DNA from: Psilocybe cubensis | Lineage: Eukaryota | Assembly: GCA_017499595.2 (NCBI GenBank) | Contig: CM039010.1 | Location: 62,001-126,000, forward strand | Direction: 5' to 3' | DNA length: 64,000 bases | Part shown: one piece after another, positions 36,376-55,765 of the stretch | How positions within the stretch are numbered: the stretch's first letter is position 1 | Layout of the letters: every line of letters starts with the position of its first letter | The notes under the pieces: generated by a model | Seen by the model: only the letters and a program-made list of their open reading frames with translations | What the model was told of the DNA's origin: nothing | Databases searched by the model: none | Translations under genes and position numbers: made by a program

Positions 36376-37413
36376 ATGCCATCCATCGTCGACCTCAACC
36401 TTCCAAAATTATTAGTGCGCAAAAAAGCAGCAGAGTGCTCAGAAGATTCATCCAGTAAAGAGCTGTTGCTCGAATCAGAACAGCGGGATGCTGAACGTGA
36501 TGAATCAAAACCCTTTTTCCAGGATACACATTCATCGGCTTCCTTGCTCAACACATTCTGTGTGCTGGTCTGTATTGCCTGTGCAACACTCAGCTGGTAC
36601 AACTCCTTCTCCCACCCCCTTTCCGTCCAGAATGCACCTTTTCCTACCGATAATTATCGAACGGTGCACAGGAGCAAGTACAACAGCCTGCGTCGTCCCT
36701 CGCCCTTCATAGGATTTGACTATCTTCCGAGATCTAAGCCTGCTAAACCTCGACGTCTAGTCAACTTTCCAGTTTCAATATCCCTTGTCAATGCTTCTAA
36801 CGTCGACCAAGTATTCAGCGACGACCCAGGGTCAGAATGGACAGAGACTGGACTCATTTCGCGGGAGGACAGAACCGTAATGATTAGCCCCTCTGTAAGC
36901 ACCTTCCATGTCGGTTCCATGGACCAAATTACTTACATAATTCGATTGAAGGTTAGTACGATCGTCCAGTTTAGGGCGGTAGACTACGGCATGGAGCGTT
37001 GTATACTCACCATTCGGATGTCATCCGCGACTACGGATGTCCTCGATGTCCCTAGGGGTGTTTCAATCCATCGGTTAGATGCATCTCATGGCCCTCTTGA
37101 TTTGAAAAAATTGTCGTATTCCAACCGTCCCACTCGAATCTCTACCATGGGCGCCTTGCAAGTATCTCCCGGTACTCTCTCGGACTGGCAAACGGAGTTC
37201 CATTGTATGTGGGATACTCTACACATTTTCGAGTTTGGGTACACGGGCCAAGCGATTGATGAATATCGTGACAATAGTACCTTTACCATCCAATGGTCGC
37301 AGAATAAGGAGGAGGAAGATCCTGATACTGGTACGTCATCTACGATGTATTCATATTGTTCTTGTACCGATATCCTACTAGCAATATTTTTGGTGCAACG
37401 GGAATCGATTTGA
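36376..37413 (+). CDS. Type II membrane protein with a But2-C-like luminal domain (two probable introns)
   Basis: One TM helix LLNTFCVLVCIACATLSW, LRRPSPFIGFD, VSTIVQFRAVDYGMERCILTI; in-frame GT..AG intron about 36895-36951 and another near 37331-37382; family label recalled, not searched. Confidence 0.6.
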   Translation: MPSIVDLNLPKLLVRKKAAECSEDSSSKELLLESEQRDAERDESKPFFQDTHSSASLLNTFCVLVCIACATLSWYNSFSHPLSVQNAPFPTDNYRTVHRSKYNSLRRPSPFIGFDYLPRSKPAKPRRLVNFPVSISLVNASNVDQVFSDDPGSEWTETGLISREDRTVMISPSVSTFHVGSMDQITYIIRLKVSTIVQFRAVDYGMERCILTIRMSSATTDVLDVPRGVSIHRLDASHGPLDLKKLSYSNRPTRISTMGALQVSPGTLSDWQTEFHCMWDTLHIFEFGYTGQAIDEYRDNSTFTIQWSQNKEEEDPDTGTSSTMYSYCSCTDILLAIFLVQRESI

Positions 37414-38454
37414 CTAGAATCCAATCTCTTCGACATAATGAAAATTAGACATGGAAGAAACAGTAAATACAATATCCTAACTGATGCCTCTGTTAAAGGC
37501 AACTACAATTTTTCTGCAAGTGAAGCACGGTAAGGAACCTCAATGAGTCAAATCGCTTCTCAAACCAGTCACTGTCAAGTAGCCTACCGTAGGTCGAAAT
37601 CCTTGACGTCTTATAGCCCCAAGACCAGAAATCTCAGACCCTTGTAAAATGTCACCCTGAAATTGAAAACATATTTTAGATTCAACGCAATAAACGGTCA
37701 ACCAACCTTCACAGTGGCAGTCTATTCTTCTACTTGTTAGATCTAGATGGCGACATCATCACTTTTTCAACAATACTGAACACGAGACCATGCTTCCTGA
37801 GACTATGTATAACATTAGAGGCACATTGGAGGGTGCTGATAGTTCGTGAGACGGAAATGATAAGCGCGAACAGAGTCAAGGAAAAGTTCGAAGTAGTCAC
37901 ATGCCCCTTGCACGGAGATGGCGGGTATGTGAATGACTTTGGGCGCATGGGCGAATCATATTCGAACTGTTCGGTGTATTGATAATCTGCCTGCTTCCGC
38001 ACAACTCTGCCTACCTGGGGAACTGCACTCACCAAAGATGTATGTGCTACAATACTCACGCAAATCGGCCATATAGAAATACGGTATAATGTACCTTACA
38101 GTCCTCATAGATGTAGACCCTACATGCCTGCTAACCATGAACCGTACATTCCATCTTCCTAAAACAGTCATCAAGACCTAAATATCTTGCTCACGGCAAA
38201 CATAATTTATCACTCAAATGTCCGCACCTACCGCATTTCCAATTTAATCTGCTGAAACATTCTATGATAAGCTTGTTGATCCACTCCCGGGCTGCTGTAT
38301 GGCATGGAATGGGCCTCATTACATGTGGGCTCAATAAATGTTGTCATAGTTTGATATCAAGCAAGACAACACTGCCATGGTCTCGGAAGGTTAAAATTTC
38401 TGGGCACAGCCGAAATTGCTGAGGACAACCCTAGATGTTACGTGCACCCGAAGT

Positions 38455-39990
38455 CAGGTCAGGGACTCGAACTGTGGTGAGCTCGAGAATTTGGTGAGGG
38501 ACTCACAATGTTTCGTGCACCAGAATATGTGTGAGAGACACGAAATGTGTCGCGCAGTGGAATTTGTGAGAGGACGCTGTGAGGGATGCCCCTGAGTTTG
38601 TGTGAGGGAATCGAAATGTGGTGAGTGCCAGAATTTGTGTGAAGGACTCACAATGTTTTGTGCACCGGGATTTGTGTGAGGGACGCGAAATGTGGGGAGT
38701 TCCAGAATCTGTATGAGGGACTCGAAATGTGTCACGCAGCGGAATTTGTATGAGGGACTCGAAAAGAGCGGAGTGCCAGAATTTGTGCGAGGGACTCGAA
38801 ATGTGGTGAGCGCCAGAATTTGTGTGAGGGATGCACCTGAGTTAGTGTGAGAGCTGTGAAATGTGGTGAGCGCCAGAATGTGTGTGAAGGACTCACAATG
38901 TTTCGTGCACCGGAATTTGTGTGAGAGCCGCGAAATGTGGTGAGCGCGAGAATTTGGTGAGGGACTCACAATGTTTCGTGCACCAGAATATGTGTGAGAG
39001 ACACGAAATGTGTTGTGCAGTGGAATTTGTGAGGGGACGCTGTGAGGGATGCCCCTGAGTTTGTGTGAGGGAATTGAAATGTGGTGAGTGCCAGAATTTG
39101 TGTGAAGGACTCACAATGTTTCGTGCACCGGGATTTGTGTGAGGGACGCGAAATGTGGGGAGTTCCAGAATCTGTATGAGGGACTCGAAATGTGTCACGC
39201 AGCGGAATTTGTATGAGGGACTCGAAAAGAGCGGAGTGCCAGAATTTGTGCGAGGGACTCGAAATGTGGTGAGCGCCAGAATTTGTGTGAGGGATGCACC
39301 TGAGTTAGTGTGAGAGCTGTGAAATGTGGTGAGCGCCAGAATGTGTGTGAAGGACTCACAATGTTTCGTGCACCGGAATTTGTGTGAGAGCCGCGAAATG
39401 TGGTGAGCGCGAGAATTTGGTGAGGGACTCACAATGTTTCGTGCACCAGAATATGTGTGAGAGACACGAAATGTGTTGTGCAGTGGAATTTGTGAGGGGA
39501 CGCTGTGAGGGATGCCCCTGAGTTTGTGTGAGGGAATTGAAATGTGGTGAGTGCCAGAATTTGTGTGAAGGACTCACAATGTTTCGTGCACCGGGATTTG
39601 TGTGAGGGACGTGAAATGTGGGGAGTTCCAGAGTCTGTGTGAGGGGACTCGAAATGTGTCACGCAGCGGAATTTGTATGAGGGACTCGAAAAGAGCGGAG
39701 TGCCAGAATTTGTGCAAGGGACTCGAAATGTGGTGAGCACCAGAATTTGTGTGAGGGATGCACCTGAGTTAGTGTGAGAGCTGTGAAATGTGGTGAGCGC
39801 CAGAATGTGTGTGAAGGACTCACAATGTTTCGTGCACCGGAATTTGTGTGAGAGCCGCGAAATGTGGTGAGCGCGAGAATTTGGTGAGGGACTCACAATC
39901 TTTCGTGCGCCAGGATTTGGTGTTGGAGTCACAATTCTTCGTACACCGGAATTTGTGTGAGAGACACGAAATGTGTCCCGTAGCGGAATA
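38455..39990. repeat. Complex satellite: about 35-bp variant units arranged in an about 463-bp higher-order repeat, about 3.3 copies
   Basis: Unit resembles GAGGGACTCGAAATGTGGTGAGCGCCAGAATTTGTGT; landmark TGGTGAGC.CGAGAATTTGG at about 38475, 38938, 39401, 39865. Confidence 0.93.
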
Positions 39991-40592
39991 TGTCCAACAA
40001 TTACTGGATTTTTCAACTATTACAGGTAACAATTTCACGTGTCCCTCCATGCATGGTAAGCTAATTCCTACATTTCGTCGTCGGCATCGTATCCTTCGTC
40101 GAAGGAGTCCTCAAATTCTCCATATTGCGCGACGCGGTAGGCTGTCAATGGCCTGGAACCGTGGTGGTGAGGCGGTACGAATGTCCCGGATAGTGAAACA
40201 AAATGCCGCGTTACCGGCTGGCATTTGCCGATGGACTTCATCAAATTCAGATGAAATACAGAAATGAAGAGAGAACGGTCGTGTGGCTAAACTCAGGCAT
40301 ATGCCAGAAATCTCTCCTAACCTCGAAAATGTGGCATACACCATATAACTTGGTTAACCACAGAATGTGGCATGAGACAATATTTGAGTGTCCAGCTAAA
40401 CTCCTGCATATGGCATAATATACAATACAGATTATAAATGTTGCGTGTACCACATTATCGTCAACACATAAAATTTTGCATGTGGCAAAAAGCCAGTATC
40501 TTATTGTCGTCTACTTGGTCTATACAGTACAAGTTTACTTCGAATGCCAATAAATTTCCTCACTACAAATTTCAACTCTATATAAAAGCTAA

Positions 40593-43330
40593 TTACTGGG
40601 ACATAGCGCTCGACTCTCCAGCCTGACCTTGCTTTGTTGCTGCCTCAGCCGCCTCCCGTCTCATCCTTTCCAGCTCTGCTTCTCTCTGCGGAAAAATTAT
40701 CCTCATTTCAATTCCCGTCTTCTCTTCCCACTTCTTCGCAAGCCTGGTGATACTCAAATCCAACAATCTCACCTCTCGTTCAAACTTGCGAATGTCTCTG
40801 GGTCGGTTAGGGTCGTAGATGTCGTCCGCTGTGAGCAAAGACTGTTCTTTGAATACTTTGATCAGGAAGGATCGATGCCGCGGCTCAAAGACATCCCCTT
40901 TCATGGGTTCCTCTAACCCCTGTAGCGATGGAAGTGGCGATGAAATGGTTAGAGTCTTCCAAAAGTAAAACTCCAGCAAGACATCGTCAATCAAGCATCC
41001 GCATGACATATAACCTGTTTCCCTCAGGGGCGTTGCTGCATCCTCGACTCGGTATCGATATACGGGTTTCTTAGGGACTCCCCGAACTCTGTAAAGGCCT
41101 GGTCCGTTGTCGAAAAATTTGGTTTTCGGGTACCTTTTATGGAAACGGCAGATGAGATTACCATGCGAGGTCATGTGAATGGCGATAGCCACGCGTCTTG
41201 ATTCGAAGCACTTCTCAGGAAGTAGAGATTGGACATGACGAAGTGATCGACGATATTTTGGACGGAAATCCTGCAAGTTTCCTGTCTTCTCAAAGCGGGC
41301 AATAGAGCGCACAATATCATCTACAATGCAGTAAATCAGTCAAAGAAAAATCTAATCAACAAGAGAGGCAGCTTACCACAATATTCAACCCGCTGAATTG
41401 GTGTCATAGCTGCCCAATTGGCCTCCTCCTTCATATCTTCCTCACAATCCCACTCATCGACCCTAAACTCTCGAAGGCCCGTCGCATTTGCCTCCTCCTC
41501 CTCCTTCAGCTCATCGCTGTAAACAACCTCCAGCATGAGACGCTGAGCCTTGGTCCTCTTCCTGCCAATAGTGGGATCGAATTTGGTGCTCGATTTGCGC
41601 TTTGAGGACTTGCTACCCTCCCCATCACCTTCAAATGACCCCTCAGACAACGACGATTCATCATCATCCCCAGACCCGTTTTCTGTGGTGTTAGCCCTGC
41701 TAAATGCCTTGTCGCCGCCGGAAGATTTCGTAATTCTAGCCTGTCTAGAAGCCTTGGCAAACTTTGACCGAATGGTTGTTCCCTTTGAAGCTTTCTTGGA
41801 CTTGGAGGATGCCAGTTGCTGAAGCTCTAGCTTGACGGCATCGATCTCTGCCATGAGAAGATTTCTCTTCCGCTGATACTCAGGAAGATCTGCCACTGTC
41901 AGCCTCGAGAACTCCGCCTCGCCCTCATCTCGCTGCTTGTCGAGGATCTCTTTCCTCTTGAGGAGATGTTTGCGTCGTTCGTTGGCAGTAAAGGATCGTT
42001 CTCCTTCAGCAATAATGTTTTGTATTTCGCTGACTCTTTTCTCAACAGCGTAAATAGCAGCATAGCCCGAGTCAATCTCTCTCAGCTTCAAACGTATCTC
42101 GTCCATTGTGCGCTGTGCTGGCGCACACAGTTCTTCTTCTAGTGTGTGAATCTTCTGTAAGAGACCTGAACTCTCTGCGGTGCACTGGTCTAACTCCTTC
42201 TGAAGGTTTGGAGGAATGGGGAACATGGTTGACCCACCCACAATCTGGATTCCAAATGAGTCCATGTTCGTCACAATACAGTCCTGTAAAACTCACATTC
42301 AAAATTGGTGCTTCTCCATTTGAACCCAACGCTTCTCGCCTCCCGGAATCAATTTGAATTGGACGTGCGTCGCCGGATATGAGATCCTGGTGAGGTGGCG
42401 TTGCTGCATTAACAACTCCAGCCGGGAATCCAGATATCTCGATAGTCATCTCATGGCGAATAGACGTGTCGGCTGACTGGGACGGTAGCGAGAGCGCTTT
42501 CAAAACCGGATCGATGTTGGCATCATCAACGGTGGACTACGTGATTGGTGAGTAAAATATTTAGTTCATTCATTGTCCATGGAAAATATAACACCGTAAT
42601 GACTGACCTTGATAGCAGATTCCGTCACTGGGCCTTTGTACACCACACTGTTGGTAGGCGCACAAGGTTCGTCATCCTAAAGCAAATCAGCAGTTAGTGA
42701 GTGGCCTAATGCATATTAACATAGCGATTACCGACCTTTCTGGGAGGGCCGGTCACTGGCTCTTTCTCCGCTGGCATAGTTTCCTCGACTTGATTTTCAT
42801 CGATCTGAATGAGAAAATTTGTCGCATTAGTAGCATATCCACAAGTACAATAATGACTTACAATTGTACGATCCCATGTCTTAGGTTGTAAAATAGTAGC
42901 TGGGGCTCCCGTAGTTTGTTCCACAGGCGCAAGAGGAACCTTGGAGATAGTGGATGCAACTATAGCAGCTAAATAACTGGTCGCTGAGCTGGTTGACTAA
43001 GGGCAATAAATGAGGCAATAAGGAACACTTTTTCATACAAAAACTAGCATACCATGAAGCCTGCGGTTGTTTCCAGATTTGAAACGCTGTCGAGAGTCTC
43101 TTGATTGATCTCTTTACTTTTGCGATCTTGATATAGACAACAAGGTTAGTTGATTCATTGGTGAATTATACATAGTGGGACCTACCTTTGAGAAGAGCGG
43201 TCAATGATTCTTTGGCGTCCTTGAACTCCTTATGAATGTCCTCCCAATTTGCAGGGCGATTCTCCCTGCGTTTCTTGTGAATGCGATGCCAGGCGGCAGT
43301 CGCTGTCTCCAGCCTAATATTGGCAGCTGC
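40593..43330 (-). CDS. Transposon cargo gene, multi-exon, coiled-coil and charged regions plus a C-terminal CGC-motif domain; function unknown, 5' end uncertain
   Basis: ORFs 42072-42503, 41336-42274 and 40593-41312 linked by GT..AG introns (e.g. about 42295-42246 and 41376-41330); TGYMSCGCLIDDVLLEFYFWKT. Confidence 0.55.
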
Positions 43331-44464
43331 GATAGCTAAAAATAACAGTTAAGTAGGCCAATCCGTACAGCGAAACAATTCAAAAACACACCAAGGTCCC
43401 CCTCCATAAATTCTGGCTGCACGACGTAAAGAAAATTCTGGCTGCGCGACGTAAAGATTGATGCTAGCGGAAGTTCGCAAAGTTTCTGAAGCAATTCGGA
43501 ATGTGAAATTCTTACCTTCTATCGCTGGACTACTTCGGATGGTCTCGACTCCAAGACAATGTTGAGCGATGCATCGGATGCCATGCATTTTGCAAACCTT
43601 CATCGGACCTCAAGGCGTATGGACATCTGTGCCCGCTTTGGTTCCCATCAGAAGATCCACAAATTATCCCCGTTTGGACGACCGAATGGGTCATCATTGC
43701 TGAACCACAGGAACTTAAAGGATACATCGTTGGCGGCGTCAGCCAGGAGCACTCTTTCCCTTACAACTTCGCTTTCTTGAATTCCCCAACCCTTGACTTA
43801 TGTCTCAGCTTGCGAAAAACAGTACGTGGGAGGCATGATAGCTGGCAAATTAACTGACTTATTCATCTGTTCTGATCCAGGGTGTACATGTTTCTCGCTC
43901 GCTGCGATGGAAAAACAACTTTCTGTCTTGAACTCAGGTAAGCTCACTACATGCTTCAAAAGATCTATATACTGACGGTGTTGTAGATTGCACCTGTCAT
44001 GTTGCTGGAACAACATGCTTACGTCCCGGACACTTTCTCCCCCCCGAGGTGGAACGCTGGTACAGTGTGGTAGTTGGTCGCCGCCCTGGCCCAGTTCAAG
44101 GACGGTACGTACATACTCATTGTGTCTATCCAGTTATGCTTATAAAACATTGTTCTTAGGGCTGCCGCACTTGATAATTACACCGGAATCTCTGGTGGTC
44201 ATGCACTGTTTTGCCCATCGGAATTGATTGCTAAAGCCCATTTCTATTCGGCGTTGGAGCGTGGGGAGGTGGTAGAGGTTGTTCCCCCGGTTCGTACCGT
44301 GCTAAATCGTGAAGATGTATCCACCTGTACTGGATTTCGTCCTGAAGATCCATGTACGTGCAATCTGCTGCTCTCCACCGCTTCAATGACTGATTTTGTG
44401 GCATAGCAACTCCTGAGGTTGGAACATGGACCCTAGTCATTGTTGGTCGGGAGCCAGGCATCTT

Positions 44465-45700
44465 TTCTTCGACGTAGTAAGTTGAAATCAAACCTTTATC
44501 TCAAACAGAACCTTACCTATTGTTTAGTCGCCCCCAAGGCAGCATTGTGCATCTCAACATCCAAGGGATTCGTGGTTCCCAAACCAAAGCCCTCCCAACT
44601 AGGACCGACGCCGTTAACAAGTTTCTACAGCTTGTGGATGCTGGTGAGGTGGTTAGGGTCTCCGGTGACAGCAATTTGCGCATTGCGCATACACCTGAGA
44701 CGTATCTCGAGCTTTGTAGATACTGCCAGAACATGTAAATTGGTCGCTACTTCATACTGAATCAAGTCAATCACATTGGTGTCTACACTGTATCCATGAG
44801 TGTGTGATATACTACTTGTAGATGACCTCGTTTTGCTACAATCTCGCGAACCTGAAGAAATATTTCAAACCATTCGGGCTCACTGGGAGGTGTCTCTTGC
44901 AGAAGATTGCAATTCAGCTCGTCTGCCTCTTGTAGGAAACCTTGAAGCTGTCGGCATCGCTCTTCCAATCTACTGCCTTTAAATCGTCGAGGGTATTTCC
45001 ACCCTGAGTGAATGGTCCATCGTTGTTTCAGGGCCTTGGAGAAATCTTCGTATTCTTGAATACCTTTCTCGAAAGCCTCCTCGGCCTTCTTTGCTCGATC
45101 CAGACGCTCCAATTTCATCAGCTTTTCATGCATCAAGTCGTCGAACTCTTGTGATGCATAATATTCCTGGGATGTATAATACCCCTCAGGCCTTGGCTGG
45201 TCGGGGTTTTCTTCACAGTGGTCAGGACCAGATGTAAATCACGATTGAATATAAAGTACGGCTCACCAAGTTCAGTTTGTGTGGATTGATCCACAGATAC
45301 TGCCGTAGCAGTATACATAGCTATTCAATATATATATATATGCTGCCCCAAACTTGATAGTTGAGACTTACTGGCACTGTCCCGTTGAGGTTGTTCTACC
45401 CTAGACTCTGAAATAATAACGTCCTCGCTATCAACCTCCAGGGTGTTTGCTATTTCGGCCTCTTCTTGCCTCAGTAATTTCCTGTGCTCACTTAGTTAGA
45501 TTTTATGTTCTATACGGCTGATTAGAAGCTCTGACTCTTGCTGCCTGCGAAGACGATTTCGGACCGCATTCTTTGCATTGATTTTCTGCCGATTTCTAAG
45601 GGTAAAGCAATCAATAAAGGTCAGAGAACCAAAGCAATTGAGAGACCTACTTCTGCAAATATCTCTGCTGTTTGGTCAACCCATCCGGACCAACTCGGCA
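44465..45700 (-). pseudogene. Cargo gene remnant, helical protein with in-frame stops; boundaries approximate
   Basis: ORF 44783-45136 continues after a probable intron as YEVATNLHVLAVSTKLEIRL..HKL*KLVNGVGPSWEGFGLG (TAG at 44625-44627). Confidence 0.4.
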
Positions 45701-46789
45701 GGAGCTGGCTGATCCTTCCATGAGAGAAGCAGGAAGATTGTGTAAGTAAGGGTGAGGTCAAGTGGCAGGGTGTGATTTATGGCCAGGTTGCGAATTATTC
45801 TAATTAGGCGCTCGCTTGCAATACAGCAAATTGACGCCAGTTTGATTTCAAGCCGTGGCCTTGTCGCTTTGCACGGGCTATATCCCTGGATAATTCTCAT
45901 TTTATGATATAGGTAAACATAAAAAGGAATTGGTACATTTCATATGTATTACATTGGCACAGACAACAAAAATACTGTACAAACTGGTAGCAGGTATGCG
46001 ACCTTACAGCATGTATGCGACCTCACAGAACAAGTTCTTAGTATACGACCTGGTTTGTGACTATCAAACAGGACAAATTCTTAGTATGCGACCCGGTTTG
46101 TGACTATCGAATGATGTACTTACCTGAAGCACAAGTTGGTGGTCACATTCATCATGTATACGACCGGCCCTGGTGGACACGTATTTGCCGCCTATATTGG
46201 AACGTGACGCACAGACCATGTCTGACATAACCTGACGGCTTGAACACCGCGTGATGGGCTGGACCCTTCTAGACCCGTACCAAGGCCAGGCTATTTCCGA
46301 CAATGCCAGTGATTGTTCCCGGGATTGTGGCACAATTGGTTAACTTTGTCAAAAAATAGCACTCAGGTGTATCAATGCACACCACTAAGATTGTACCATA
46401 CAAACGTCTACTAGCTTGAGATAGCCTTTCAGTCAGAGTAGAGGGAATACCAGGCCACCTTGAAGCTGAGTTTCAGCTTGCCAAGCTGCTCATTAAGGCT
46501 GATTAACTGGCTTCTTCTCGCTTATGAATTCGGGTGTTTGGCCCATATGCCCGCAGGAATGCAACATGTCTTCGGGTGCATTGCAATTAGAGTTTTTCCG
46601 CAGCATGGCCGCCGACACACGCTTTGACATCATAGAAAGCTCCTTATAGTCATTGTGGGACCACCTTTTATTGATGTCAGTTCCAAAGGTGATATCTGTG
46701 GTTATAGTATACTTCATAGCTTTGAGACTAATTCCAAACCCAGTGCGCTGGTAGGGTCAAGTCTATGTATTTGTTAAGCGCCCCGCCAT

Positions 46790-47576
46790 GAGGTTTTGTG
46801 GGCTTATTGCCTTAGTGTGAGTGCCCAGCTTGTGTCATATGAGTGCAAATTGCAAATAGATGAATGTGCCGACTCATCATGCATGATTGTGACTGCACTG
46901 GGATGGCCATGTGGGACCTGGTGGCTAGGACAAGAAGGTACCGAGCAATCATTGACACAGGATATTCCAAACAACATAAAAAGGGACATCTGGGGGAGCC
47001 CAAGGAACGACAGTGCAGCATATTACTCCCCAGCTACCCAAGAAATTTGAATCACAGCCTTTCGCATGGAACTCTGCGCTAATCCTGACTGTCGAAGGGA
47101 CGAATGCGTTCAACGTTCAACCATCAATATCCACGTATTCTCATCAGTAAGTAATGAATGCTCTGTCCGTTCCTATCAATATCCATTAATGAACTGTTCA
47201 GCTTACACCTCGCCTACCATTTATGTGGTACATCCGAGCAAAAAATGGCCACTTTGTATATGGAGATGATTCTCATCTCTGTCATTTGACCCGGGCGTCC
47301 GAGGTTCCACTTCTTCGGGCTGTCAGACTGGGAGCCAAGAGGTTTGATTGGAAAGAATTCGATGCATTTGCACCGATTGAGCCGGAGGATTTTGACCATT
47401 ACATGATCTTCAAATGTGCCGACGTCCCCGACTCCAGTTGCTATATGATCGAACATTTTCTCCGTAGACTGCACAACAATCTCGATGACGGGCCTGATCC
47501 CGAGGAGGAGGGGGACGAGGACGAGGATGAGACCGATGATGAAAACAGGGATGATTCGCTGATTGATTCTGATTAA
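46790..47576 (+). pseudogene. Cargo gene with Cys-rich segments and acidic tail, interrupted by TGA at 47048-47050
   Basis: QEI*ITAFRMELCANPDCRRDEC, GTAAGT..CAG intron, then LTPRLPFMWYIRAKNG...DPEEEGDEDEDETDDE. Confidence 0.45.
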
Positions 47577-47613
47577 TGGTATATGGCTATGAAATAGTGT
47601 ACGACTGGCTATG

Positions 47614-48810
47614 TTAAAGAAGGCCGTGGATACGCTGATAACGCTTCAACTGTTTATCTAACTCTTTCTGAGTCTGAGCCGCTTTCTCCAATGATTGCGC
47701 CATTTGCTGTGCGTCAAGACGAGATTGATCAAGTTGGCGTTGGAGGTCCGCATTTTCCTGAGTGCGGGCCTGAATCAAATTACGAGTGATACTGGAAAAC
47801 TGAGTCCCAATATTTCCTACCTGCTCTGCAGCATCTCGACGAAGGCGTGGTGAGGCATAACTGATGGCGGGAGATCGAGCTGTCGAGTGCTGGGCACCGA
47901 TAAAAAGCCAACACGAAGTTTGTCTAGACAAGTCCTCGCACTAAAAACAATCAGTTTAGAATGTTTTTACAGCAGTTTAAAAAACCCAACCTTCTCGACA
48001 ATCGAGTTGATTGTACTCGTAAACCTCCGTACAGCCCGAGTATTGTCGGCAATAGGTGAAGGTAGCGCATGGCCGCGCACAATTTCTGGAGCCAAAGATC
48101 GGATTTCAGAGACAACCAGTGTGATTTTTAAGAATGACCAGACCACTCACGATAGATTTCCGATCCACGGTAAGCTCCTTCAACAAAGCCGTTGTATGGG
48201 TCTCTGGCACTGGTGCGGCGCGCTTGACGAGAAGATGAGGCGGACGCTGATGAGAGGCTCGCACTGGTGGTACTTCCCGTGCGAGCAGATAGTTGGGCAA
48301 GATGCGATGAGGTGAGCACACCCATGTTGCCAGAACGTGCTGATGCGGGGGTGGGAGTGGCAACGACACTGTGTGATGCGGGTGTGCTCGCGGATGCAAA
48401 GATGTCAGGAGTGGAAGGGCCTGCATTGTTGAATGCCAGTGAGGTAGAGGGGCCAGGCCCGACATTGCTGTTGGAACTGTCTGAGCTGGACTCATTGTCC
48501 GAATCATCCTCAAGTTCCTGCGACGCCATAAGCAAATAATAGGACAGTATCTAAAGAAAAACTCACATTTAATGCAGCTTGACGCGCCAGATACTCCTTT
48601 CCGCGCTTGGTATGCTCGCATTGGGCTCGAAGAGGCCTCCCAGGACACTTCTGGCACTTCTGGGCCTGACGTTGGGGCTCAATAGGTGTTGACGTCTATA
48701 CCCAGCGAGCACTGTATTCAGAGCAGTGGCAGAGCATGCATCTAGGAGATGAACATACTGTCTTCCGTTTGGAGGCACGAGGTGGTGTTCTAGAGGCTGC
48801 AGCGGCATTG
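47614..48810 (-). pseudogene. Cargo gene: Ser-rich region, Cys cluster and C-terminal coiled coil; appears disrupted
   Basis: ORFs 48569-48808, 48128-48535 and 47614-47931 on the same strand with splice-like boundaries and intervening stops. Confidence 0.4.
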
Positions 48811-49307
48811 GAAAATTGTTTCTGTCATATCTGTTAGCATGAACATTATAGACAGTCAGTAGAAACTACCTTTCTCTTGGTAATGAGACTAGACTCTTTG
48901 CGACCCATTGTATGAGAAGGAAGGAGAGTGGGGAACACACCGTAGAATTTCGGAATGGAACAACCTTAAATAATACGCCAAAATGATCTTATGGAAGGAT
49001 TTTCTGCCCCATGTCTAACCTTGTACTCTGCCGGATTTGTTGATCTGCTAAAAAAACTTCAGATGATATCGTCTTTCTGACCAGGAAGTGAAAATGAGGT
49101 CACAAACATACTTTCAAGCGCTGGCCAAGCATATAAAATAGCTCACACGCAACATCTTAGGGGCTGGATAACCATATGAAAATGGTTCACAGGCAACATT
49201 GTAAGTGCTGGACAAGGATATCAAAACTGCGCTCACAGCCATAATTTAAGTGTGCTGTAGGTCGCACACGCTATACCCGCCGGCACTCACTGTCTCTTCC
49301 AAGTAAC

Positions 49308-52300
49308 ATGTATGACTCACCTCCTCCGATTGTATACGCACTTCCACCAGAATCTCCCTCCACAATCCAGTATGCACCTGTTAAACCCCAAGACTGCGAA
49401 CTTATTACTACTCCAATTCGCAAAAAGAGAAAGGTTTCAGGTCCAGTAAAGCGGACCAAGGTTGCTGACCGGCAAGGGAAGGCACAAAACACAGAACACA
49501 CGCCAGGCCAACAATCAACACCAGCAACTTTCACTGATTTTCCCGAGCCCAATGTTTTGGAAACCTCAAATCAGGAGCTTGAAGCTACAGATGACGACAT
49601 AGATACACGACTTCTGCCTAATTTTGATGAAAATTATTCGCTTTTCTTGGATGCTGTTTTGGCAGAGGAATGCGGCCTGTTTCAACTGACCAGTCGGTTA
49701 TTTGTGGTAAATGGGTGGAATATTTTGAGGGGGGAATCAACCGTAAGTCATTTCAGATTCTCGCAAAGTTAAATTTCCCTCTCATACATCAATAGCGGCT
49801 GTGGTACCATGTACTCCGAGTGGAGATTGACGGCATCTTCACTTCTGTTTGTTTGTGCCCGGCTGCCAATGGGCAAAGTTCATGTTTCCATTCACGCTTC
49901 ATTGATCAGAATGCTGGTGTAGGTTCGGAAAACCAGGCTTTTGAGGTAGAAAAAGGTAGTGAGAACTTAGATTGTTTGATATGGATTCAACATACCGTGT
50001 TCATATGCTATCCTGGTAGATACAGATCAGACAACTTTCTTATTTTCAAGGCACGAGAGTATAAAAGATGGACAGTACATGAATTACTTCTCAACACCAT
50101 CATTTACTCGATTTTCAACAATCAAGAACCGTGCCGTGGTCGAACATCAGGGAGACGACACCGGAGCGGGAGTTTGGAAATGCAACAAGGACAGTGGGGC
50201 ATCCTCGTGCTCACATATTGTATCGGCGCGGCATACATTGCAGCAATATTTGACAGGCAACTGTGATGCTCAAGACGACAATGTAGGCAAGGATGGCGAC
50301 ACAGGATTACAATACAATGGTAAGCTTGATTATCTATTGAAAGGTTCGAGTACTTAACTACAAACCTATCTTCATAGGTACGGCTCTGCGTACAATGGCA
50401 GGTATTGCTGAATCGGTTTCATATCGCCCTCTCCCACCGCCGGGCTGGTCAAGAGTCGCATCCGATCCTCCATCAATGCCAAGAGTGACATTTGACATTC
50501 CTCCAACGATTATCTCCCTGTCGACGAATGATTCTTGCTGTTGTACAACCCCACGTGAGCGTTTCAAAGCTCTTGAACCTACAATCGAAAAGGAGTGTAC
50601 CATTTATACTCTTACACGGGCGTTCAAAGCAGTTATAACGTTGCAAAAATGCGGTAAATGCACCCATCGATGTATTGGGCCAGATTGTAGCTCACAAGGG
50701 ATTTTTAATTTCAATAACCGGAGCTTGTTCACCCATGAGCTCCTTGATGATTACACCAGCGCATTTTCGTCGTCAGAAACCCCTTTTATTTCCTGGGTGC
50801 AGACTGTTTCTCGCCGATACCAAGCAAGGAACTCCCCTATTCCGTTTGCAAACGAGAAGTTGTTTCGATCGAGCTGGTTCTCTTACGCCCGACTTATAGA
50901 CTTTGGACCCGACATGGTATGCCCATCCTGTGGCCCGACCCCTGATTCAACTATATGGGACGGCGTCACGGTGTCATTTAGCCGCAAAAACCTGATGCCA
51001 ACTCTACGTCCCCCGACTACAATAGGGGAGAATTCTATCTCTAGACCAGATGTCCGGCCGTTACCCAATCTGCAAGCCATTCCAAACCGCTCCTTGCGCC
51101 TTTTAATTCGTTATATTCTGCAGGGGCCACAATTAACCACCATTTCTGACGCCACTCATCCGGAGGGAAGCCCCGAGTATGAACGAAACCGCCGAATGGT
51201 TGAGCGCTTGACTCAAATTCCCGAGCTAGTCCGGAAATTGATGGCCCTGGACCCTTCCGTTGGAGAACTCTTCGATATCCACTTTGGGATGGCTACTGTT
51301 TTGGGTAAAAGGAATGCGCATGATGTGTATTCCAAATTTTTCATCCAGGTATTTCGGTATTCCATATATTAAACGACTCATTATAACAACTTTAATTATA
51401 GCTGTCTTCGGATGAAAATGTGCTGCAATTTATAGCATTTTCCTGCCTGGACAACCTTCGAACATTCATCAGACGTCCTTATCTCAGCAATGTTCATTTG
51501 CTGCGATATATCCCGGCTCTCCATCTGTTAATTAAGCATGAACTTACCATGGGGACGCTCACAAATCAGGTTCTAGGGGTCTGTAAATGGCTATACGTCC
51601 GGGTTACTGTGGTCTACACACTATTAAAGGTTCACGATGGACCTGCTGTTGTAAGCAATGTTTTACAAGAGAATTTATTTATGGATGATTGGCTCAAGGT
51701 GAGTTGTCATATAATGTTAAATGAAATTTCAAACGAGATTTTAAATAGACAGGATGTTGCTACGCCATGCCGGCCATTCGTGACCGTCCACAATATCCAA
51801 ATTTGCCATACGAGTCAGGATATGACTTGGGAAGCGCAGAAATTGACGAAGACATATGCCGAAAATACTACTCCACCTATTCAAAAAAGCGACTAACCGG
51901 CGGGATTATGTGTGTTTGGTGCACCCATAGCATTTGCTATGGATTTCACTGTATCCGAGCGGCGGAGGGAAGAAACGATGTGTTCTCGGCAATATTCACA
52001 CGCTGGAAAAAGGCTCCAAAAGTCGTGGTATACGATTTTGCTTGTGCTTTACAGCCTTATTGCATGTTACGGGAACCAGACTTCTTCAAGGACACACTCT
52101 TCGCCATCGACATATTTCACTCAAGTGAACATAAATGTGGTGAAGCCTGTTTTCTTTCATCTTACTGTGCAGAAAATCCAAATCTGCTCAGACTAAATTC
52201 TAGTGCTGCAGAATGTGGAAACAGTGGGATTTCCAAGATTCGAAAGGCTGTGAGCTATATGTCACAGGACAGAGCAGTGATGTACATGAGGGTTTTCTTT

Positions 52301-52354
52301 TCGATTTGGAACAGGCAGCAGATTCAAAAGTTAGAAAAAAAGCAAGGTCATTAG
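49308..52354 (+). CDS. KDZ-class transposase (Zisupton/HMGXB3-like; SWIM-like and CxC4-like Cys clusters), multi-exon
   Basis: CLCPAANGQSSCFH, CIGPDCSSQGIFNFNNRSLFTHELLDDY..ETPF, CPSCG..IWDGVT, TGGIMCVWCTHSICYGF..EGRNDVF, YDFAC, IDIFHSSEHKC, NSSAAECGN; exons joinable by GT..AG introns. Confidence 0.82.
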
Positions 52355-52576
52355 TTAGCCTGTAGTTAAAAATTTAAATCAACATTGTTTGTCTCCAACC
52401 ACAGAAACCGCAGATGTGTCAAATGCATGGTTTAGAGTATTTTTGACAGGATATCCGGGGAGAGAACAAATATGTGTGGCTGCCGAATTTTGGTCAACAT
52501 GCATTATATTTATGCTAGTATAAAAATTGACGCAGAGGATTCAGTTCTGGAACATGGTTAATATATGGCCGGTACG

Positions 52577-52755
52577 CCATTTCTCGCGGGGCAATCAAAA
52601 GGTGGCCTGTGCACCATTTCTCGCGGGGCAATCAAAAGGTGGCCTGTGCACCATTTCTCGCGGGGCAATCAAAAGGTGGCCTGTGCACCATTTCTTGCGG
52701 GGCAATCAAAAGGTGGCCTGTGCACCATTTCTCGCGGGGCAATCAAAAGGTGGCC
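52577..52755. repeat. Tandem repeat, 37 bp x about 4.9
   Basis: CCATTTCTCGCGGGGCAATCAAAAGGTGGCCTGTGCA at 52577, 52614, 52651, 52688, 52725; one substitution seen. Confidence 0.95.
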
Positions 52756-53873
52756 CGTATGTGGCCCGTCACCCCGTGCATCAAATCATGGCAACTCAAG
52801 AATTGGTGCCAAAAGAATCATTTTGAATCACTGTGTATTAAATATGCATTTGTACATTCTGCAGGATTCTAACTGCTCGCTGGTTCTGTGGTTAATGGAT
52901 AATACCATGTGTGATTCCGAATGAGTGAAAGACGTCCTCAACAATTTGAGGTCTGTGCGTAACCCTAAAGTTGAATGTGGATACCACCTCCGCTGTATGA
53001 CGGACGCTTAGACCAAGATGTTTGAAAGTGATTCTGAGAGCGAAATTGAGTATTTGAAGGATGAATGGTGCTCAGACCAATATTTAGGGTGGATAGTAAA
53101 GGGGTTGCACCGAAAGATTTGAGGTGTTACTAGAAAAAATGATGCTCCAGCTGCAATCTCTGTGACGCTTGTTGCAAAATGGGTGTTATCGCAGACTTTG
53201 ACATATGAATGAAAATAATGCTCTGGCCAAATTTTGATATGCTCACACCAAAGTTTCTATCTGCATAATAAATCAAATTTGACCGAGAGATTGACATGTT
53301 AGGACAAAATGAAGCTCCAGGCCACAATTTGTGTCACCCGTGCAAAGTGATCGTTAGCGCAGACTTTGACGCGTTCATGAAAATGATGCTTGGGCCAAAG
53401 TTTCGTTCGGCATCCTAAAGTGAATCCAACCGCAAACCTTTACACTCTACTGAAAATCGAGGCGTACACCACAATTTCTATGAGCACATTAACAGAAAGC
53501 TCTCCAACACATGAGTGAGAATGATGCTCATGCCTCAATTGATATGATGCCAGTGGAAAAAATTTCCGTTAACCCAGATAATGGCGCTTCCGAGAACAAT
53601 TTTTCCTTCCAATAACCCATTATAGACATCGGAATGTAGGGTACTTTATTTGCGGGAATGCAGGGTATAAGTTTCATTGGGATGTAAGGTACATTATACC
53701 TGCTTTACTACCCAGTCGATAGGCCAATACTCAACTGGTTATTTTTGAATTTTCATCACGAAGTGGACATAAGGATGGGATGCAATCTCTAAGCAGATCG
53801 AACTCTGCAATTCTAGAAAAGCAAGAAAGCAAAGTATCTGTGTAACGAACTTCCCGAAACACAACTTACAACC

Positions 53874-54221
53874 ATGTTCAAGCAAATCAAAGCCATCGTC
53901 GTGCTCACCCTTGCTATCTTCATAGCAAGTTCTATTGCTGCACCAACCATTAAAATTGTCAAACGTTTGTACTCATCCCTCTAAACGTAGGCCATTTAAT
54001 CACTGAAAGTGTATTGTCTCCAGGACGCCCCCTTCGCGGCAACGCCATCACCTGCCCCTGAACGGACATCAGCATTCTCAGCGGTATGATACGACAATTG
54101 ACCATCTTTCTTACTCCTATATTCAAGTCAACTCTAACAGGGCCAGAATAAAGACAAGAAGGATGGAGGGTTATTTGGGACGTACAAGGATACCGTTGAA
54201 TACCCAAATAATACAAATTGA
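53874..54221 (+). CDS. Small secreted peptide gene, candidate RiPP precursor; exon phase ambiguous
   Basis: Kozak ACCATG, signal peptide MFKQIKAIVVLTLAIFIASSIA-APT, KR site, two intron-like segments (GTTTGT..CCAG, GTATGA..CTAACAG), last exon GQNKDKKDGGLFGTYKDTVEYPNNTN*. Confidence 0.55.
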
Positions 54222-54985
54222 ATCATGGATTTGATTAGCGTTGATACGACCGAGTCCATCACTCAGACTTTCGTTCCCCTCATAGGGTACCTGATGGTAG
54301 ATGTTTTCTCTGATCGTTTAACTTTTGCTTTCGTGTTGCGCGTGGCACATTCAAACATCCAATTATGTGGGATATTCAACTATGATCCCGCTGTCCGCCT
54401 GTTCGCTTGAACACAATAGCAACTCACAAAACGGCAAGGTAAAAGAACCAATTAATAAATGATATGCTTCTACATCACGGACAGTGTTATACGTACAGCC
54501 GAAGAGGTCAAAAGCACAGCCTTCTGTATTGCTGCACTCCGTTAAAAGATTCTGATGCCATTTTCAAATATTTCAAGAGAGATGGTTCTCGATACATCAC
54601 GCAGAACGTTGAGAGGTATTCGTAACATTAATAATTATGGATATAGAAGCTCTATGGGTGTATCGGTTCGTGTGAACCAAGTGTCTGCTGATAATTTAGA
54701 ACAAACGTTGAGGTATTGAATAAGGATGATAGAAGTTTCCTACCTCACCTTGAAGCCCTTAGAGTTGTTTATTAATAGAGCTGACACCCACCGTGATATG
54801 AAAGTTTCCGACAAGTCCCCTCGCTACATTTTCGGATTTATCCACAACCGATGGGAAGTAAACCTTCCATACTTGGGTGATGTAAATGAAATTGGCTGCC
54901 GTCATACCAATTTGCATAATATTTTCTTCCAAGTTCGACATGGCCAGGCCACGGCCATCTCGCCCCAAAAAAACAATGTTCAAAA

Positions 54986-55657: not shown

Positions 55658-55765
55658 GGTGGTTTGCTAGCAAAGCAAGAAGTTGCACATATTGACAAGC
55701 GGGGAATGAATTGTCATGGTATATATATATGGCAGATATCAAAGCGACCTCCCACCTTCTTTACT

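What the first reader, a model, noticed from the sequence alone, without database searches (positions are those of the whole stretch)
38083..53700. Precisely delimited 15.6-kb KDZ/Zisupton-like cargo transposon with phased terminal motifs and no TSD
Seen: perfect 18-bp TIR; each end carries three 12-bp motifs (consensus ACCyTACATTCC) at exactly 24-bp period starting 10 bp from the tip (38093, 38117, 38141; mirrored, ending 53690, 53666, 53642) with unrelated spacers. Flanks AGAAATAC and TGCTTTAC show no duplication. The transposase looks intact. Established: KDZ transposases in mushrooms mobilise passenger genes. Inference: the motifs are transposase binding sites and define the ends of a large element.
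Basis: partly seen in the sequence, partly recalled or inferred. Interest (0 to 1): 0.76.

Follow-up and report, generated by a model that had tools for sequence, protein, structure and literature searches.

The report
Mobile KDZ transposon with corrected ends
A 15.7-kb jumping gene in the mushroom Psilocybe cubensis is real and recently mobile, but its true ends lie 24-25 bases outside the repeats first noticed and it does duplicate its target site, so it is a fairly ordinary member of a known transposon group that carries two conserved companion genes of unknown function.

Summary
The sequence features are real: a perfect 18-bp inverted repeat (38083-38100 / 53683-53700) and three 12-bp ACCyTACATTCC motifs at an exact 24-bp period at each end. 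The delimitation and "no TSD" are wrong. Public Psilocybe cubensis runs laid on the region show an empty-site allele joining 38049 to 53725 in 3 of 4 runs. Other copies diverge at about 38059 and 53725, and depth inside is 3-4x the flanks. The mobile unit is therefore 38059-53725 (15,667 bp), 24-25 bp beyond each 18-mer. It is flanked by an 8-bp duplication AATACTCA (nine letters, CAATACTCA, are identical). The transposase gene (49308-52354, six exons, 922 aa) is intact. It has a CxC4 domain (E 2e-44), and its predicted structure has an RNase-H-like DDE core. The reference assembly annotates three near-identical copies. The "cargo" is mostly not passenger DNA: two further genes (ORF2, ORF3) are syntenic in related elements from metagenomes. 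An ACCnTACA core recurs in mirrored subterminal arrays of relatives, which supports a binding-site role. Verdict: a recently active Zisupton-type KDZ transposon, a new member of a known kind.

The parts
38051..38058 (.). Left copy of the target-site duplication AATACTCA (with 38050, nine letters CAATACTCA are shared)
   Evidence: the empty-site joint 38049->53725 has 9 letters that fit either side. 38050-38058 equals 53725-53733.
38059..53725 (+). The whole mobile element, 15,667 bp (15,666 if the duplication is 9 bp)
   Evidence: other copies run on unlike the window before 38057-38060 and behind 53725 in all 4 runs (X12: 57 reads at each end). Depth is 3-4x the flanks between these points. 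The empty allele lacks 15,675 nt.
38059..38082 (+). Left outer terminal segment (24 nt), only weakly inverted-repeated with the right tip (7 of the first 10 letters: sGCmwATCGr)
   Evidence: gapped alignment of the two ends.
38083..38100 (+). Left arm of the perfect 18-bp inverted repeat. It is subterminal, not terminal, and overlaps motif 1
38093..38152 (+). Three 12-bp motifs ACCyTACATTCC at 38093, 38117 and 38141 (24-bp period), pointing inward
38461..39965 (+). Left subterminal tandem array: 37/74-bp units nested in 463-bp units (3.1 copies, 98% matches). Copy number varies among copies
   Evidence: a joint 39975->39907 'goes back 69' in all 4 runs.
40596..43588 (-). ORF3: 814-aa protein of unknown function, identical to JR316_0012767. 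The C-terminal domain is encoded at 40596-41339. The annotated model needs a 13-nt 'intron' at 42284-42296
   Evidence: Conserved in relatives. 578 family clusters. Model pLDDT 93.9 with no structural match.
43601..47200 (.). Lineage-specific middle region with small ORFs (for example 44786-45238, minus strand). It is the only candidate for true cargo
   Evidence: no similarity to the rest of the window or to the 50 related loci; no homologue among longer proteins; no Pfam family.
47617..48695 (-). ORF2, transcribed away from the transposase gene. Conserved exons are a CxxC..CxH knuckle (48513-48695), a YGxVEGAxRG motif (within 48131-48550), and CWL..AQH..YASPRLRRD plus a coiled coil (47617-47940). 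The full gene model was not resolved
49116..49226 (.). 44-bp x 2.5 tandem repeat in the ORF2/transposase divergent intergenic region
49308..52354 (+). Transposase gene. Exons: 49308-49742, 49796-49955, 50020-50343, 50402-51348, 51402-51698, 51749-52354. 922 aa, with a SWIM-like CxCx8CxH (164-177), CxC4 (340-468) and a DDE-type core (D493, D817, E876 proposed)
52566..52755 (+). Right subterminal 37-bp x 5.1 tandem array, distantly related to the left 37-bp units in direct orientation
   Evidence: score 26, reached by 0 of 300 tiled shuffles.
53631..53690 (-). Three 12-bp motifs on the minus strand (53631-53642, 53655-53666, 53679-53690), mirroring the left end
53683..53700 (-). Right arm of the perfect 18-bp inverted repeat
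53701..53725 (+). Right outer terminal segment (25 nt)
53726..53733 (.). Right copy of the target-site duplication AATACTCA

Best explanation
This is one copy of an autonomous, recently active cut-and-paste DNA transposon of the KDZ superfamily, of Zisupton type (SWIM-like + CxC4 + DDE core), in Psilocybe cubensis. The mobile unit is 38059-53725 (15,667 bp). It was inserted by a staggered cut that duplicated 8 bp of target (AATACTCA); 9 bp is not excluded. It carries three genes that the family conserves in order and orientation: ORF3 (minus strand), ORF2 (minus strand, divergent) and the transposase (plus strand). It also carries subterminal tandem arrays and about 3.6 kb of lineage-specific DNA. 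Inferred mechanism: element-encoded protein binds the three phased ACCyTACATTCC sites at each end, which are mirrored and begin 35-36 nt from the tips. The binder is most likely the transposase, through its zinc modules. The two ends are paired, and the DDE core (proposed D493, D817, E876) cuts about 24-25 bp outside the perfect 18-bp repeat and joins the ends to a target. Shown: the boundaries, the duplication, the empty allele, multiple near-identical copies, an internal-deletion derivative, an intact transposase gene, a DDE-like predicted fold, and synteny of the three genes. Inferred: which protein binds the motifs, the catalytic residues, and the roles of ORF2 and ORF3.
For: Boundaries and mobility (runs X1, X5, X9, X12 of 13 listed). 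The joint 38049->53725 skips 15,675 nt with 9 shared letters. It is seen in X5 (1 contig, depth 20.4), X9 (1 contig, 18.6) and X12 (19 raw reads from 13 starts), and not in X1, which instead has contigs across both filled junctions (36100-38087 and 53696-55700). Loose ends lie before 38057-38060 and behind 53725 in all 4 runs; in X12 there are 57 reads at each end with consensus agreement of 0.6 and 0.49, which indicates several different flanks. Depth inside versus flanks is about 200 vs 54 (X1), 45 vs 14 (X5), 54 vs 21 (X9) and 110 vs 33 (X12). One other copy in X5 has a left flank ending CGATAGCA and a right-flank consensus starting CGATACCA (7 of 8 alike). X12 also holds joints 46581/46590->52601/52675 with the filler GCAATTAG, which is a derivative lacking ORF2 and the transposase gene. 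Copies: the JR316 annotation has 3 transposase/ORF3 pairs on 3 contigs, always 5 locus tags apart. They differ from the window's proteins by 0-2 residues. Family: CxC4 scores 151 bits and is found in 33 of 33 relatives; PF18758 KDZ is found in 11 of 33 at E<=0.01. C164, C166, C175 and H177 are conserved in 30 of 30 covering sequences, D493 in 33 of 33 and D817 in 21 of 21. In the VIA second look at the transposase model, the best rows are the ISCth4 transposase (Z 10.2, rmsd 3.8, 223 aligned), then retroviral integrase cores at Z 8.6-6.2. All 50 rows shown are DDE recombinases. Literature: Zisupton and Dileera make 8-bp TSDs (PMC12730594, passages). KDZx1, with KDZ+CxC4+SWIM, is called the canonical Zisupton structure, is 6.4 kb and makes an 8-bp TSD (PMC11343200, passages). 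Motif: in 50 related metagenome loci, ACCnTACA occurs 56 times in 43.4 kb downstream of the transposase match (about 5.3 expected), against 13 in 107 kb of coding sequence (13.1 expected). L027 has 20 plus-strand copies upstream and 7 minus-strand copies downstream, mirrored as in the window.
Against: PF18758 (the KDZ catalytic domain) does not hit this protein even at E<=1. The best relative scores 25.4 bits, below the 26.6 cut-off. Foldseek gave no PDB match at E<=0.001 for the 922-aa model. The DDE match comes from a second look at Foldseek's own weak hits on a model of mean pLDDT 75.8. An 8-bp versus a 9-bp duplication rests on where clipped reads end and on one blended consensus of another copy, because I could not read individual junctions. 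The very tips are poor inverted repeats (7 of 10), which is unusual for Zisupton as described and leaves the cleavage chemistry open. The ACCnTACA enrichment is concentrated in about four element families (L026, L027/L032, L028/L039, L045) and is inflated by tandem arrays. Other close relatives (L012, L017, L020, L022, L024) show none on their short contigs. No binding, transcription or transposition experiment was done.
Confidence: 0.88

Rival explanations
1. One reading: the element is exactly 38083-53700, bounded by the perfect 18-bp TIR, and integrates without a target-site duplication.
For: The 18-mers are perfect and unique. The 8 nt directly outside them differ, with 4 of 8 alike.
Against: The empty allele in 3 of 4 runs lacks 38050-53724, not 38083-53700. 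Other copies share the 24-25 nt outside the 18-mers. A 9-letter direct repeat flanks the larger unit.
Confidence: 0.02
2. The same element, but with a 9-bp duplication (CAATACTCA) and ends at 38059-53724, which would be a TSD length not reported for KDZ elements.
For: Nine letters fit both sides of the empty-site joint ('both' = 9).
Against: Clipped reads and contigs of other copies stay like the window through 53725 in all 4 runs, and from 38059 in X12 (57 reads). This puts 53725 inside the element and leaves 8 bp. The other X5 copy fits 8 bp (7 of 8). Zisupton, Dileera and the Cryptococcus KDZ elements give 8 bp (PMC12730594 and PMC11343200, passages; PMC12810828 passages report 8 bp for KDZ1 and 4-8 bp for KDZ2/KDZ3).
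Confidence: 0.15
3. A two-component system like En/Spm: the phased motifs are bound not by the transposase but by a conserved accessory protein. The candidate is ORF2 (zinc knuckle plus coiled coil) or ORF3, which would pair the ends while the transposase only cuts.
For: ORF2 is found next to the transposase gene in 18 of 19 related loci with enough upstream DNA, and in the 19th it lies downstream. ORF3 is found in 8 of 12. ORF2 has a conserved CxxC..CxH knuckle and a coiled coil. ORF3's C-terminal domain has invariant C64, H67, C113, G114 and C115. Short subterminal motifs in both orientations are what TnpA of En/Spm binds (recalled, not from a call).
Against: The transposase itself has three Cys/His modules that are the usual candidates for end recognition. 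KDZx1 of Cryptococcus moves with only one extra ORF (PMC11343200, passages). There is no evidence of DNA binding for either accessory protein, and neither matches Pfam or PDB.
Confidence: 0.25
4. The presence/absence polymorphism is a recombinational deletion or a segmental duplication, not transposition.
For: Recombination between short direct repeats can delete the DNA between them and leave one copy.
Against: The same unit occurs at three or more unlinked sites with different flanks. It encodes an intact transposase. Depth changes exactly at the two breakpoints. A 9-letter repeat present by chance at exactly both homology breakpoints is unlikely.
Confidence: 0.02

Closest known systems
Zisupton-type KDZ elements, e.g. 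KDZx1 of Cryptococcus deneoformans (PMC11343200, passages read)
   Same: The transposase has a CxC4 domain, a SWIM-type Cys/His motif and a KDZ-like core. The target duplication is 8 bp. There is no good TIR at the very tips. It carries an extra ORF or ORFs without known domains, has few copies per genome, and is currently mobile.
   Different: It is 15.7 kb against 6.4 kb. It has three conserved genes instead of two ORFs, long subterminal tandem arrays, and a perfect 18-bp inverted repeat with phased 12-mers set 24-25 bp inside the tips. Pfam's KDZ model does not reach this protein. Its mobility is inferred from strain polymorphism, not trapped in an experiment.
KDZ1, KDZ2 and KDZ3 of Cryptococcus neoformans (PMC11343200 and PMC12810828, passages read)
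   Same: They are large (9-11 kb) KDZ elements with 8-bp TSDs (4-8 bp for KDZ2/3), 2-5 full-length copies, and extra ORFs of unknown function.
   Different: Those have CxC1 domains, group with the Dileera clade, and have long terminal TIRs of 139-241 bp. This element has CxC4 and only a short subterminal perfect repeat.
Kyakuja elements of Agaricomycetes, e.g. Kyakuja-1_LB (PMC12730594, section 3.2.1 read)
   Same: Mushroom KDZ elements without true TIRs at the tips.
   Different: Kyakuja makes 7-bp TSDs, has 5'-CA..TG-3' termini and often carries TET/JBP. Here the TSD is 8 (or 9) bp, the termini are CG..CC, and there is no TET/JBP gene.
En/Spm (CACTA) and Ac-type subterminal repeat architecture (recalled, not from a call)
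   Same: They work alike in layout: multiple short motifs in mirrored orientation within the first 100-1500 bp of each end, and internal-deletion derivatives that keep the ends.
   Different: The transposase family is unrelated. En/Spm has CACTA termini and a 3-bp TSD, neither of which is seen here.

Membership tests
KDZ superfamily of DNA transposons | N-terminal CxCn zinc-chelating module on the transposase | tested here: met
   PF18717 CxC4: 151.1 bits, E 2e-44, cut-off 26.9. Found in 33 of 33 relatives.
KDZ superfamily of DNA transposons | KDZ catalytic domain (Pfam PF18758) | tested here: inconclusive
   No hit for P0001 at E<=1 or for the window's exons. 11 of 33 relatives hit at E<=0.01. 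The best, P0019, scores 25.4 bits against a 26.6 cut-off over residues 818-910, a stretch 58% identical to the window's last exon.
KDZ superfamily of DNA transposons | RNase-H-like DDE catalytic fold with conserved acidic residues | tested here: met
   Model pLDDT 75.8. VIA second look: ISCth4 transposase at Z 10.2 (rmsd 3.8, 223 aligned), and all 50 rows shown are DDE transposases or integrases. D493 is conserved in 33 of 33 and D817 in 21 of 21. Foldseek alone gave nothing at E<=0.001. The triad is proposed, not superposed.
KDZ superfamily of DNA transposons | Target-site duplication of 8 bp (Zisupton, Dileera; 7 bp in Kyakuja) | tested here: met
   Empty-site joint with 9 shared letters. 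Read clipping places the ends at 38059 and 53725, which leaves 8 bp, AATACTCA.
KDZ superfamily of DNA transposons | Multiple copies with sharp common boundaries; presence/absence among genomes | tested here: met
   Depth 3-4x the flanks, loose ends at both boundaries in 4 of 4 runs, empty allele in 3 of 4. 3 annotated copies on 3 contigs.
Zisupton clade | Domain structure KDZ + CxC4 + SWIM (as stated in PMC11343200) | tested here: inconclusive
   CxC4 is met. A CxCx8CxH motif (164-177) is conserved in 30 of 30 covering sequences, and two relatives are named 'SWIM-type' by UniRef. Pfam's SWIM model was not hit, and the KDZ model is inconclusive as above.
Zisupton clade | Terminal inverted repeats at the tips | tested here: inconclusive
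   The tips match in only 7 of the first 10 letters. The perfect 18-bp repeat starts at nt 25-26. A gapped alignment of the first 110 nt is roughly two-thirds identical.
Zisupton clade | Phylogenetic placement with reference Zisupton transposases | not tested
   No reference Zisupton, Dileera or Kyakuja sequences (Repbase; Iyer et al. 2014) were available. The paper was not held.
Kyakuja clade | 7-bp TSD and 5'-CA..TG-3' termini | tested here: not met
   The TSD is 8 or 9 bp. The termini are 5'-CG...CC-3'.
TET/JBP-carrying KDZ elements | A TET/JBP dioxygenase gene inside the element | tested here: not met
   No TET/JBP family among 18 ORFs of 100 aa or more or among 101 ORFs of 45 aa or more in 40000-49400. 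Small exons could escape this scan.
Starship-type giant cargo elements | Tyrosine-recombinase 'captain' gene at one end | tested here: not met
   No such Pfam family in any ORF scanned inside the element. The element has a DDE-type transposase and a TSD instead.

The most novel reading that the evidence does not exclude
The CxC4/Zisupton lineage of mushroom KDZ elements is a three-gene transposon type. The two conserved companions are ORF2 (zinc knuckle plus coiled coil) and ORF3. ORF3's C-terminal Cys/His domain has 578 family clusters, a very confident predicted structure and no match among solved structures. On this reading both are working parts of transposition or of escape from silencing. 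For example, one could be a TnpA-like factor that reads the phased ACCnTACA sites and pairs the ends, with cleavage about 24 bp outside the bound sites.
Probability: 0.25. Interest if true: 0.65.

Novelty: new member of a known kind. Interest (0 to 1): 0.45.

Why it matters
The finding gives a fully delimited and apparently still active KDZ element in Psilocybe cubensis: exact ends, the duplication, an empty allele, and a natural deletion derivative. That is the material needed for a transposition assay or a strain marker.

It also shows how a perfect inverted repeat can mislead when read without comparison. The real tips lie 24-25 bp further out, and the target duplication only appears once the true ends are known.

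Beyond this copy, the comparison suggests three things about this KDZ lineage:
- It keeps two companion genes of unknown function.
- One of them belongs to a large protein family absent from Pfam, with no structural match found here.
- It shares an ACCnTACA subterminal motif across relatives whose transposases are only 39-63% identical.

These are testable leads on how KDZ transposases, which have never been studied biochemically to my knowledge (recalled), find their ends.

Tried and rejected
- **Whole-genome search for the 18-mer:** no genome is held for this window.
- **Earlier notes of this scan:** nothing by place or by sequence.
- **A duplication directly outside the 18-mers, or with symmetric shifts of up to 6 nt:** none beyond trivial TA/TATA inside the repeat.
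- **Pfam on cargo ORFs:** only sub-threshold chance rows (Fanconi_C, Retrotrans_gag, Prolactin_RP, LisH_TPL).
- **ORF 44786-45238:** no relative among longer proteins.
- **ESM Atlas:** no usable hit for ORF3 residues 570-814. For ORF2 exon C the best score was 0.78, to an uncharacterised Basidiomycota cluster, which is a lead only.
- **Pfam and PDB sequence profiles for ORF2 and ORF3:** only coiled-coil noise and no PDB hit. For the transposase profile there were 2 chance rows at E about 0.5.
- **Pfam on 40 of the 150 listed ORF3-family proteins (the longer ones):** 0 families above cut-off, plus one sub-threshold Hexapep row.
- **ORF3 C-terminal domain against solved structures:** Foldseek gave 0 matches at E<=0.001. 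VIA-align over 48,161 chains gave a best Z of 3.1 and none at Z>=5. This does not show that the fold is new.
- **The 18-mer in 50 related loci:** only L044 comes close (16 of 18), and no phased motifs follow it there.
- **L028/L039 homology start (L028:214) as a left terminus of a related family:** rejected, because the ORF3 homologue of L039 lies outside that point.
- **Bacterial promoter/terminator scan of the divergent intergenic region:** irrelevant for a fungus, so disregarded.
- **Foldseek on the whole transposase model:** nothing at E<=0.001. The best row was Pur-alpha at E 0.067.
- **Literature:** no held paper contains both 'Psilocybe' and 'KDZ transposase'. None of the 15 listed rows, nor the 4 papers, describes this element (listings only). 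Supplements (Table S1 and Data S1 of PMC12730594) were not opened and might list related Agaricales families.

Full report

Yes for the repeats. The 18-mer GGTATAATGTACCTTACA stands at 38083-38100 on the plus strand and 53683-53700 on the minus strand. With up to three mismatches these are the only two matches in 64 kb (expected 0.04; 0 of 100 shuffles gave two). The repeat finder extends the pair to 70-nt arms that are 73% complementary.

Allowing 2 mismatches, the window's total count is unremarkable (13 against 8.5 expected). However, 6 of the 8 hits with 1 mismatch or fewer are these six.

The phasing is exact. Triplets at lag 24 have a mean pairwise identity of 9.67/12 and 10/12, while the spacers have 3.67/12. 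Of 127,878 lag-24 triplets in the window, only six reach 9.67, and all lie at the two ends. The eight letters directly outside the 18-mers do differ (4 of 8 alike).

**2. Where are the true ends?**

No genome is held for the window, so I used public sequencing runs. A junction-spanning query found 13 runs of 4 studies. Four of them (X1, X5, X9 and the raw-read run X12) were laid on 36100-55700. Three results decide the matter.

- **Depth.** Depth rises 3-4-fold exactly in the bins that hold 38062 and 53757, in all four runs (X1 about 54 to 200; X12 about 33 to 110). Contig depths are only a rough guide; the raw-read run agrees.
- **Empty allele.** A joint from 38049 to 53725, skipping 15,675 nt, is present in X5 (one contig), X9 (one contig) and X12 (19 reads from 13 starts). 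It is absent from X1, which instead has contigs across both filled junctions. Nine letters fit either side of the joint, and CAATACTCA indeed stands at both 38050-38058 and 53725-53733.
- **Other copies.** Reads and contigs from other copies stop resembling the window before 38057-38060 and behind 53725 in all four runs. In X12 there are 57 reads at each end with low consensus agreement, which indicates several different flanks.

So the inserted unit includes 24 nt to the left and 25 nt to the right of the 18-mers, and it is flanked by a target duplication.

Clipping puts 38059 and 53725 inside the element. I therefore read the element as 38059-53725 (15,667 bp) with an 8-bp duplication AATACTCA, the ninth shared letter being chance. 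A 9-bp duplication is not excluded. One other copy in X5 fits 8 bp: its left flank ends CGATAGCA and its right-flank consensus starts CGATACCA, although that consensus blends three contigs.

The tips are poor inverted repeats (7 of the first 10 letters).

**3. What is inside?**

The organism is Psilocybe cubensis. The CxC4-bearing exon is 99% identical to JR316_0008749.

*Transposase.* The gene has six exons (49308-52354) and five GT-AG introns of 50-64 nt. It encodes 922 aa with one difference from that protein. Pfam finds CxC4 (151 bits) in it and in 33 of 33 relatives. Pfam's KDZ domain model does not reach this protein and hits only 11 of 33 relatives at E<=0.01.

A CxCx8CxH motif (164-177) is conserved in 30 of 30 covering sequences. 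D493 is conserved in 33 of 33 and D817 in 21 of 21.

The AlphaFold model (pLDDT 75.8) has no Foldseek match at E<=0.001. The VIA second look ranks the ISCth4 transposase first (Z 10.2, rmsd 3.8, 223 aligned), followed by retroviral integrase cores, and all 50 rows shown are DDE recombinases. I take this as an RNase-H-like DDE core with a proposed triad of D493, D817 and E876. The triad is inferred.

*Copies.* The reference annotation holds three transposase/ORF3 pairs on three contigs, always five locus tags apart. Their proteins differ from the window's by 0-2 residues, so amplification was recent.

X12 also carries an internal-deletion derivative (46581/46590 to 52601/52675, with filler GCAATTAG) that removes ORF2 and the transposase gene. 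This is the classic non-autonomous product of cut-and-paste elements.

**4. Is it a cargo transposon?**

Mostly not. No TET/JBP or any other Pfam family above cut-off is found in the remaining ORFs. I fetched 50 related loci from metagenomes using the transposase alignment and compared the window's ORFs with them.

- **ORF2.** An ORF2 exon (47617-47940, minus strand) is found in 20 loci. Of 19 loci with at least 1.7 kb upstream of the transposase start, 18 have it on the opposite strand 0.9-1.9 kb upstream. The 19th (L018) has it downstream.
- **ORF2 knuckle exon.** A second ORF2 exon with a CxxC..CxH knuckle is found in 21 loci.
- **ORF3.** The C-terminal domain of the 814-aa ORF3 (40596-41339) is found in 8 of 12 loci with at least 4 kb upstream, always on the minus strand. 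It is missing in L005, L026, L028 and L038.

Several loci are near-duplicates of one another (L006/L008, L039/L041, L002/L005, L042/L043, L003/L004), so the number of independent cases is smaller.

ORF2 and ORF3 are thus the family's own genes. Neither matches Pfam or PDB sequences.

The ORF3 domain family has 578 representative clusters at E<=0.001. None of the 40 longer members scanned (of the 150 listed) has a Pfam family above cut-off.

Its model is very confident (pLDDT 93.9, pTM 0.85). It has no match among solved structures: Foldseek found none at E<=0.001, and the best VIA Z was 3.1 over 48,161 chains. This shows neither absence nor novelty of the fold, but it is a lead.

The annotated ORF3 model needs a 13-nt "intron" (42284-42296), so its N-terminal half may be mis-modelled or frameshifted.

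Only 43601-47200 has no counterpart in relatives or elsewhere in the window. It is the sole candidate for cargo, and its one sizeable ORF found no relatives among longer proteins.

**5. Are the motifs binding sites?**

This was not tested directly. Comparative evidence helps.

The core ACCnTACA occurs 56 times in the 43.4 kb downstream of the transposase match in the 50 loci (about 5.3 expected). It occurs 13 times in 107 kb of coding match (13.1 expected) and 32 times in 126 kb upstream (15.4 expected; 21 of these are in L027).

The excess sits in about four families (L026, L027/L032, L028/L039, L045; 39-63% transposase identity) and is inflated by tandem arrays of 61-, 89- or 121-bp period.

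L027 is a 13.3-kb contig with inverted ends. It has 20 plus-strand copies at its left and 7 minus-strand copies at its right. That is the same mirror arrangement, relative to the transposase gene, as in the window.

A motif kept in mirrored subterminal arrays across such divergence is most simply a recognition site for an element protein. Whether that protein is the transposase (three Cys/His modules) or ORF2/ORF3 is open.

**6. Comparison with what is known**

- Kojima 2025 (PMC12730594; abstract, section 3.2.1 and passages read) states that Zisupton and Dileera give 8-bp TSDs, and that Kyakuja gives 7-bp TSDs with CA..TG termini and no TIRs.
- Huang et al. (PMC11343200; passages) describe KDZx1, with KDZ+CxC4+SWIM, as the "canonical" Zisupton structure. 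It is 6.4 kb, makes an 8-bp TSD and has no detected TIR. They also describe KDZ1-3 (9-11 kb, long TIRs, extra ORFs without domains).
- PMC12810828 (passages) confirms KDZ1-3 mobility, with 8-bp TSDs for KDZ1 and 4-8 bp for KDZ2/KDZ3.
- Iyer et al. 2014 and Böhne et al. 2012 were not held, and I know them only through these citations.

The present element fits the Zisupton type in domain make-up and TSD. It differs in size, in the three-gene layout, and in the subterminal 18-mer with phased motifs.

No held paper contains both Psilocybe and "KDZ transposase". The listings show none on this element.

**7. Verdict**

This is a real, recently mobile, autonomous KDZ (Zisupton-type) transposon, and a new member of a known kind. 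The cargo idea is largely replaced by conserved accessory genes.

Interest is moderate (0.45). The element is ordinary in kind. It offers exact ends, an empty allele, a natural deletion derivative, a conserved candidate binding motif, and two uncharacterised conserved proteins for a transposon superfamily that has no biochemistry.

Noticed in passing
window 6740-9281 and 15637-18178: Two perfect 2,542-bp direct repeats, 8,897 bp apart, flank a Gypsy-type gag-pol (ORFs 9199-11901 and 11796-15677, with protease, RNase H and integrase domains). They look like very long, identical LTRs. Each contains an ORF fragment with a CHAT domain on the minus strand (7671-8276 and 16568-17173), suggesting a young LTR element whose LTRs carry a captured host gene piece.
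   Followed up: partly
window 1-855, 17911-20565, 21511-25086, 57047-60331; 54989-55528 and 55894-56397: The element sits in a cluster of CHAT/TPR (NLR-like) genes. Two UstYa-family ORFs lie 1.3-2.7 kb to its right. The insertion itself interrupts no ORF longer than 115 aa.
   Followed up: no
window 31564-34644 (minus strand): A 1,027-aa open frame with no Pfam family, and a 349-aa one at 36364-37410, lie just left of the element.
   Followed up: no
window 42509-42511, in run X12: 26 reads run on unlike the window before 42509 and 29 behind 42511, with agreement of 0.96-1.0. In that strain, one copy of the element appears to carry a further insertion with a 3-nt overlap.
   Followed up: no
window 54427-54465, in run X12: 53 and 29 reads break away at 54427 and 54465 in the right flank, with agreement of 0.98-1.0. 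This is a structural difference between strains just outside the element.
   Followed up: no
window 36100-55700, all four runs: Differences from the window are dominated by C>T and G>A. In X12 these make 329 of 465 places, against 74 for T>C plus A>G. In X1 they are 41 against 9. Of 7 such interior places listed, 3 lie in a TCG context. This may be methylation-driven or RIP-like decay of the other copies, with the window's copy near the unmutated state.
   Followed up: partly
window 38461-39965 and 52566-52755: The left and right subterminal tandem arrays both have a 37-bp unit. They are distantly alike in direct, not inverted, orientation (local score 26; 0 of 300 tiled shuffles reach it). 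Depth over the right array is about twice that of the rest of the element.
   Followed up: partly
window 42284-42296: The public gene model for ORF3 (JR316_0006704 and its twins) skips 13 nt here, which is too short for a fungal intron. This indicates either a frameshifted gene or a wrong model.
   Followed up: no
L044 1450-1467 (minus strand): A metagenome contig has a 16-of-18 match to the 18-mer, 286 nt from a fragment of a related transposase (55% identity). No phased motifs follow it.
   Followed up: partly
transposase residues about 124-277 (window exons 1-3): The best Foldseek rows for the whole model are Pur-alpha repeats (E 0.067, probability 0.33). Two beta-sheet-plus-helix units carry the SWIM-like Cys/His motifs. 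This is a weak lead to a nucleic-acid-binding N-terminal module.
   Followed up: no
L003 235-720 and 8327-8456; L027 1-1332 and 12394-13255: Related elements are much more compact (about 8 kb in L003) or have far longer motif arrays (L027), while keeping the same ORF3-ORF2-transposase order.
   Followed up: partly
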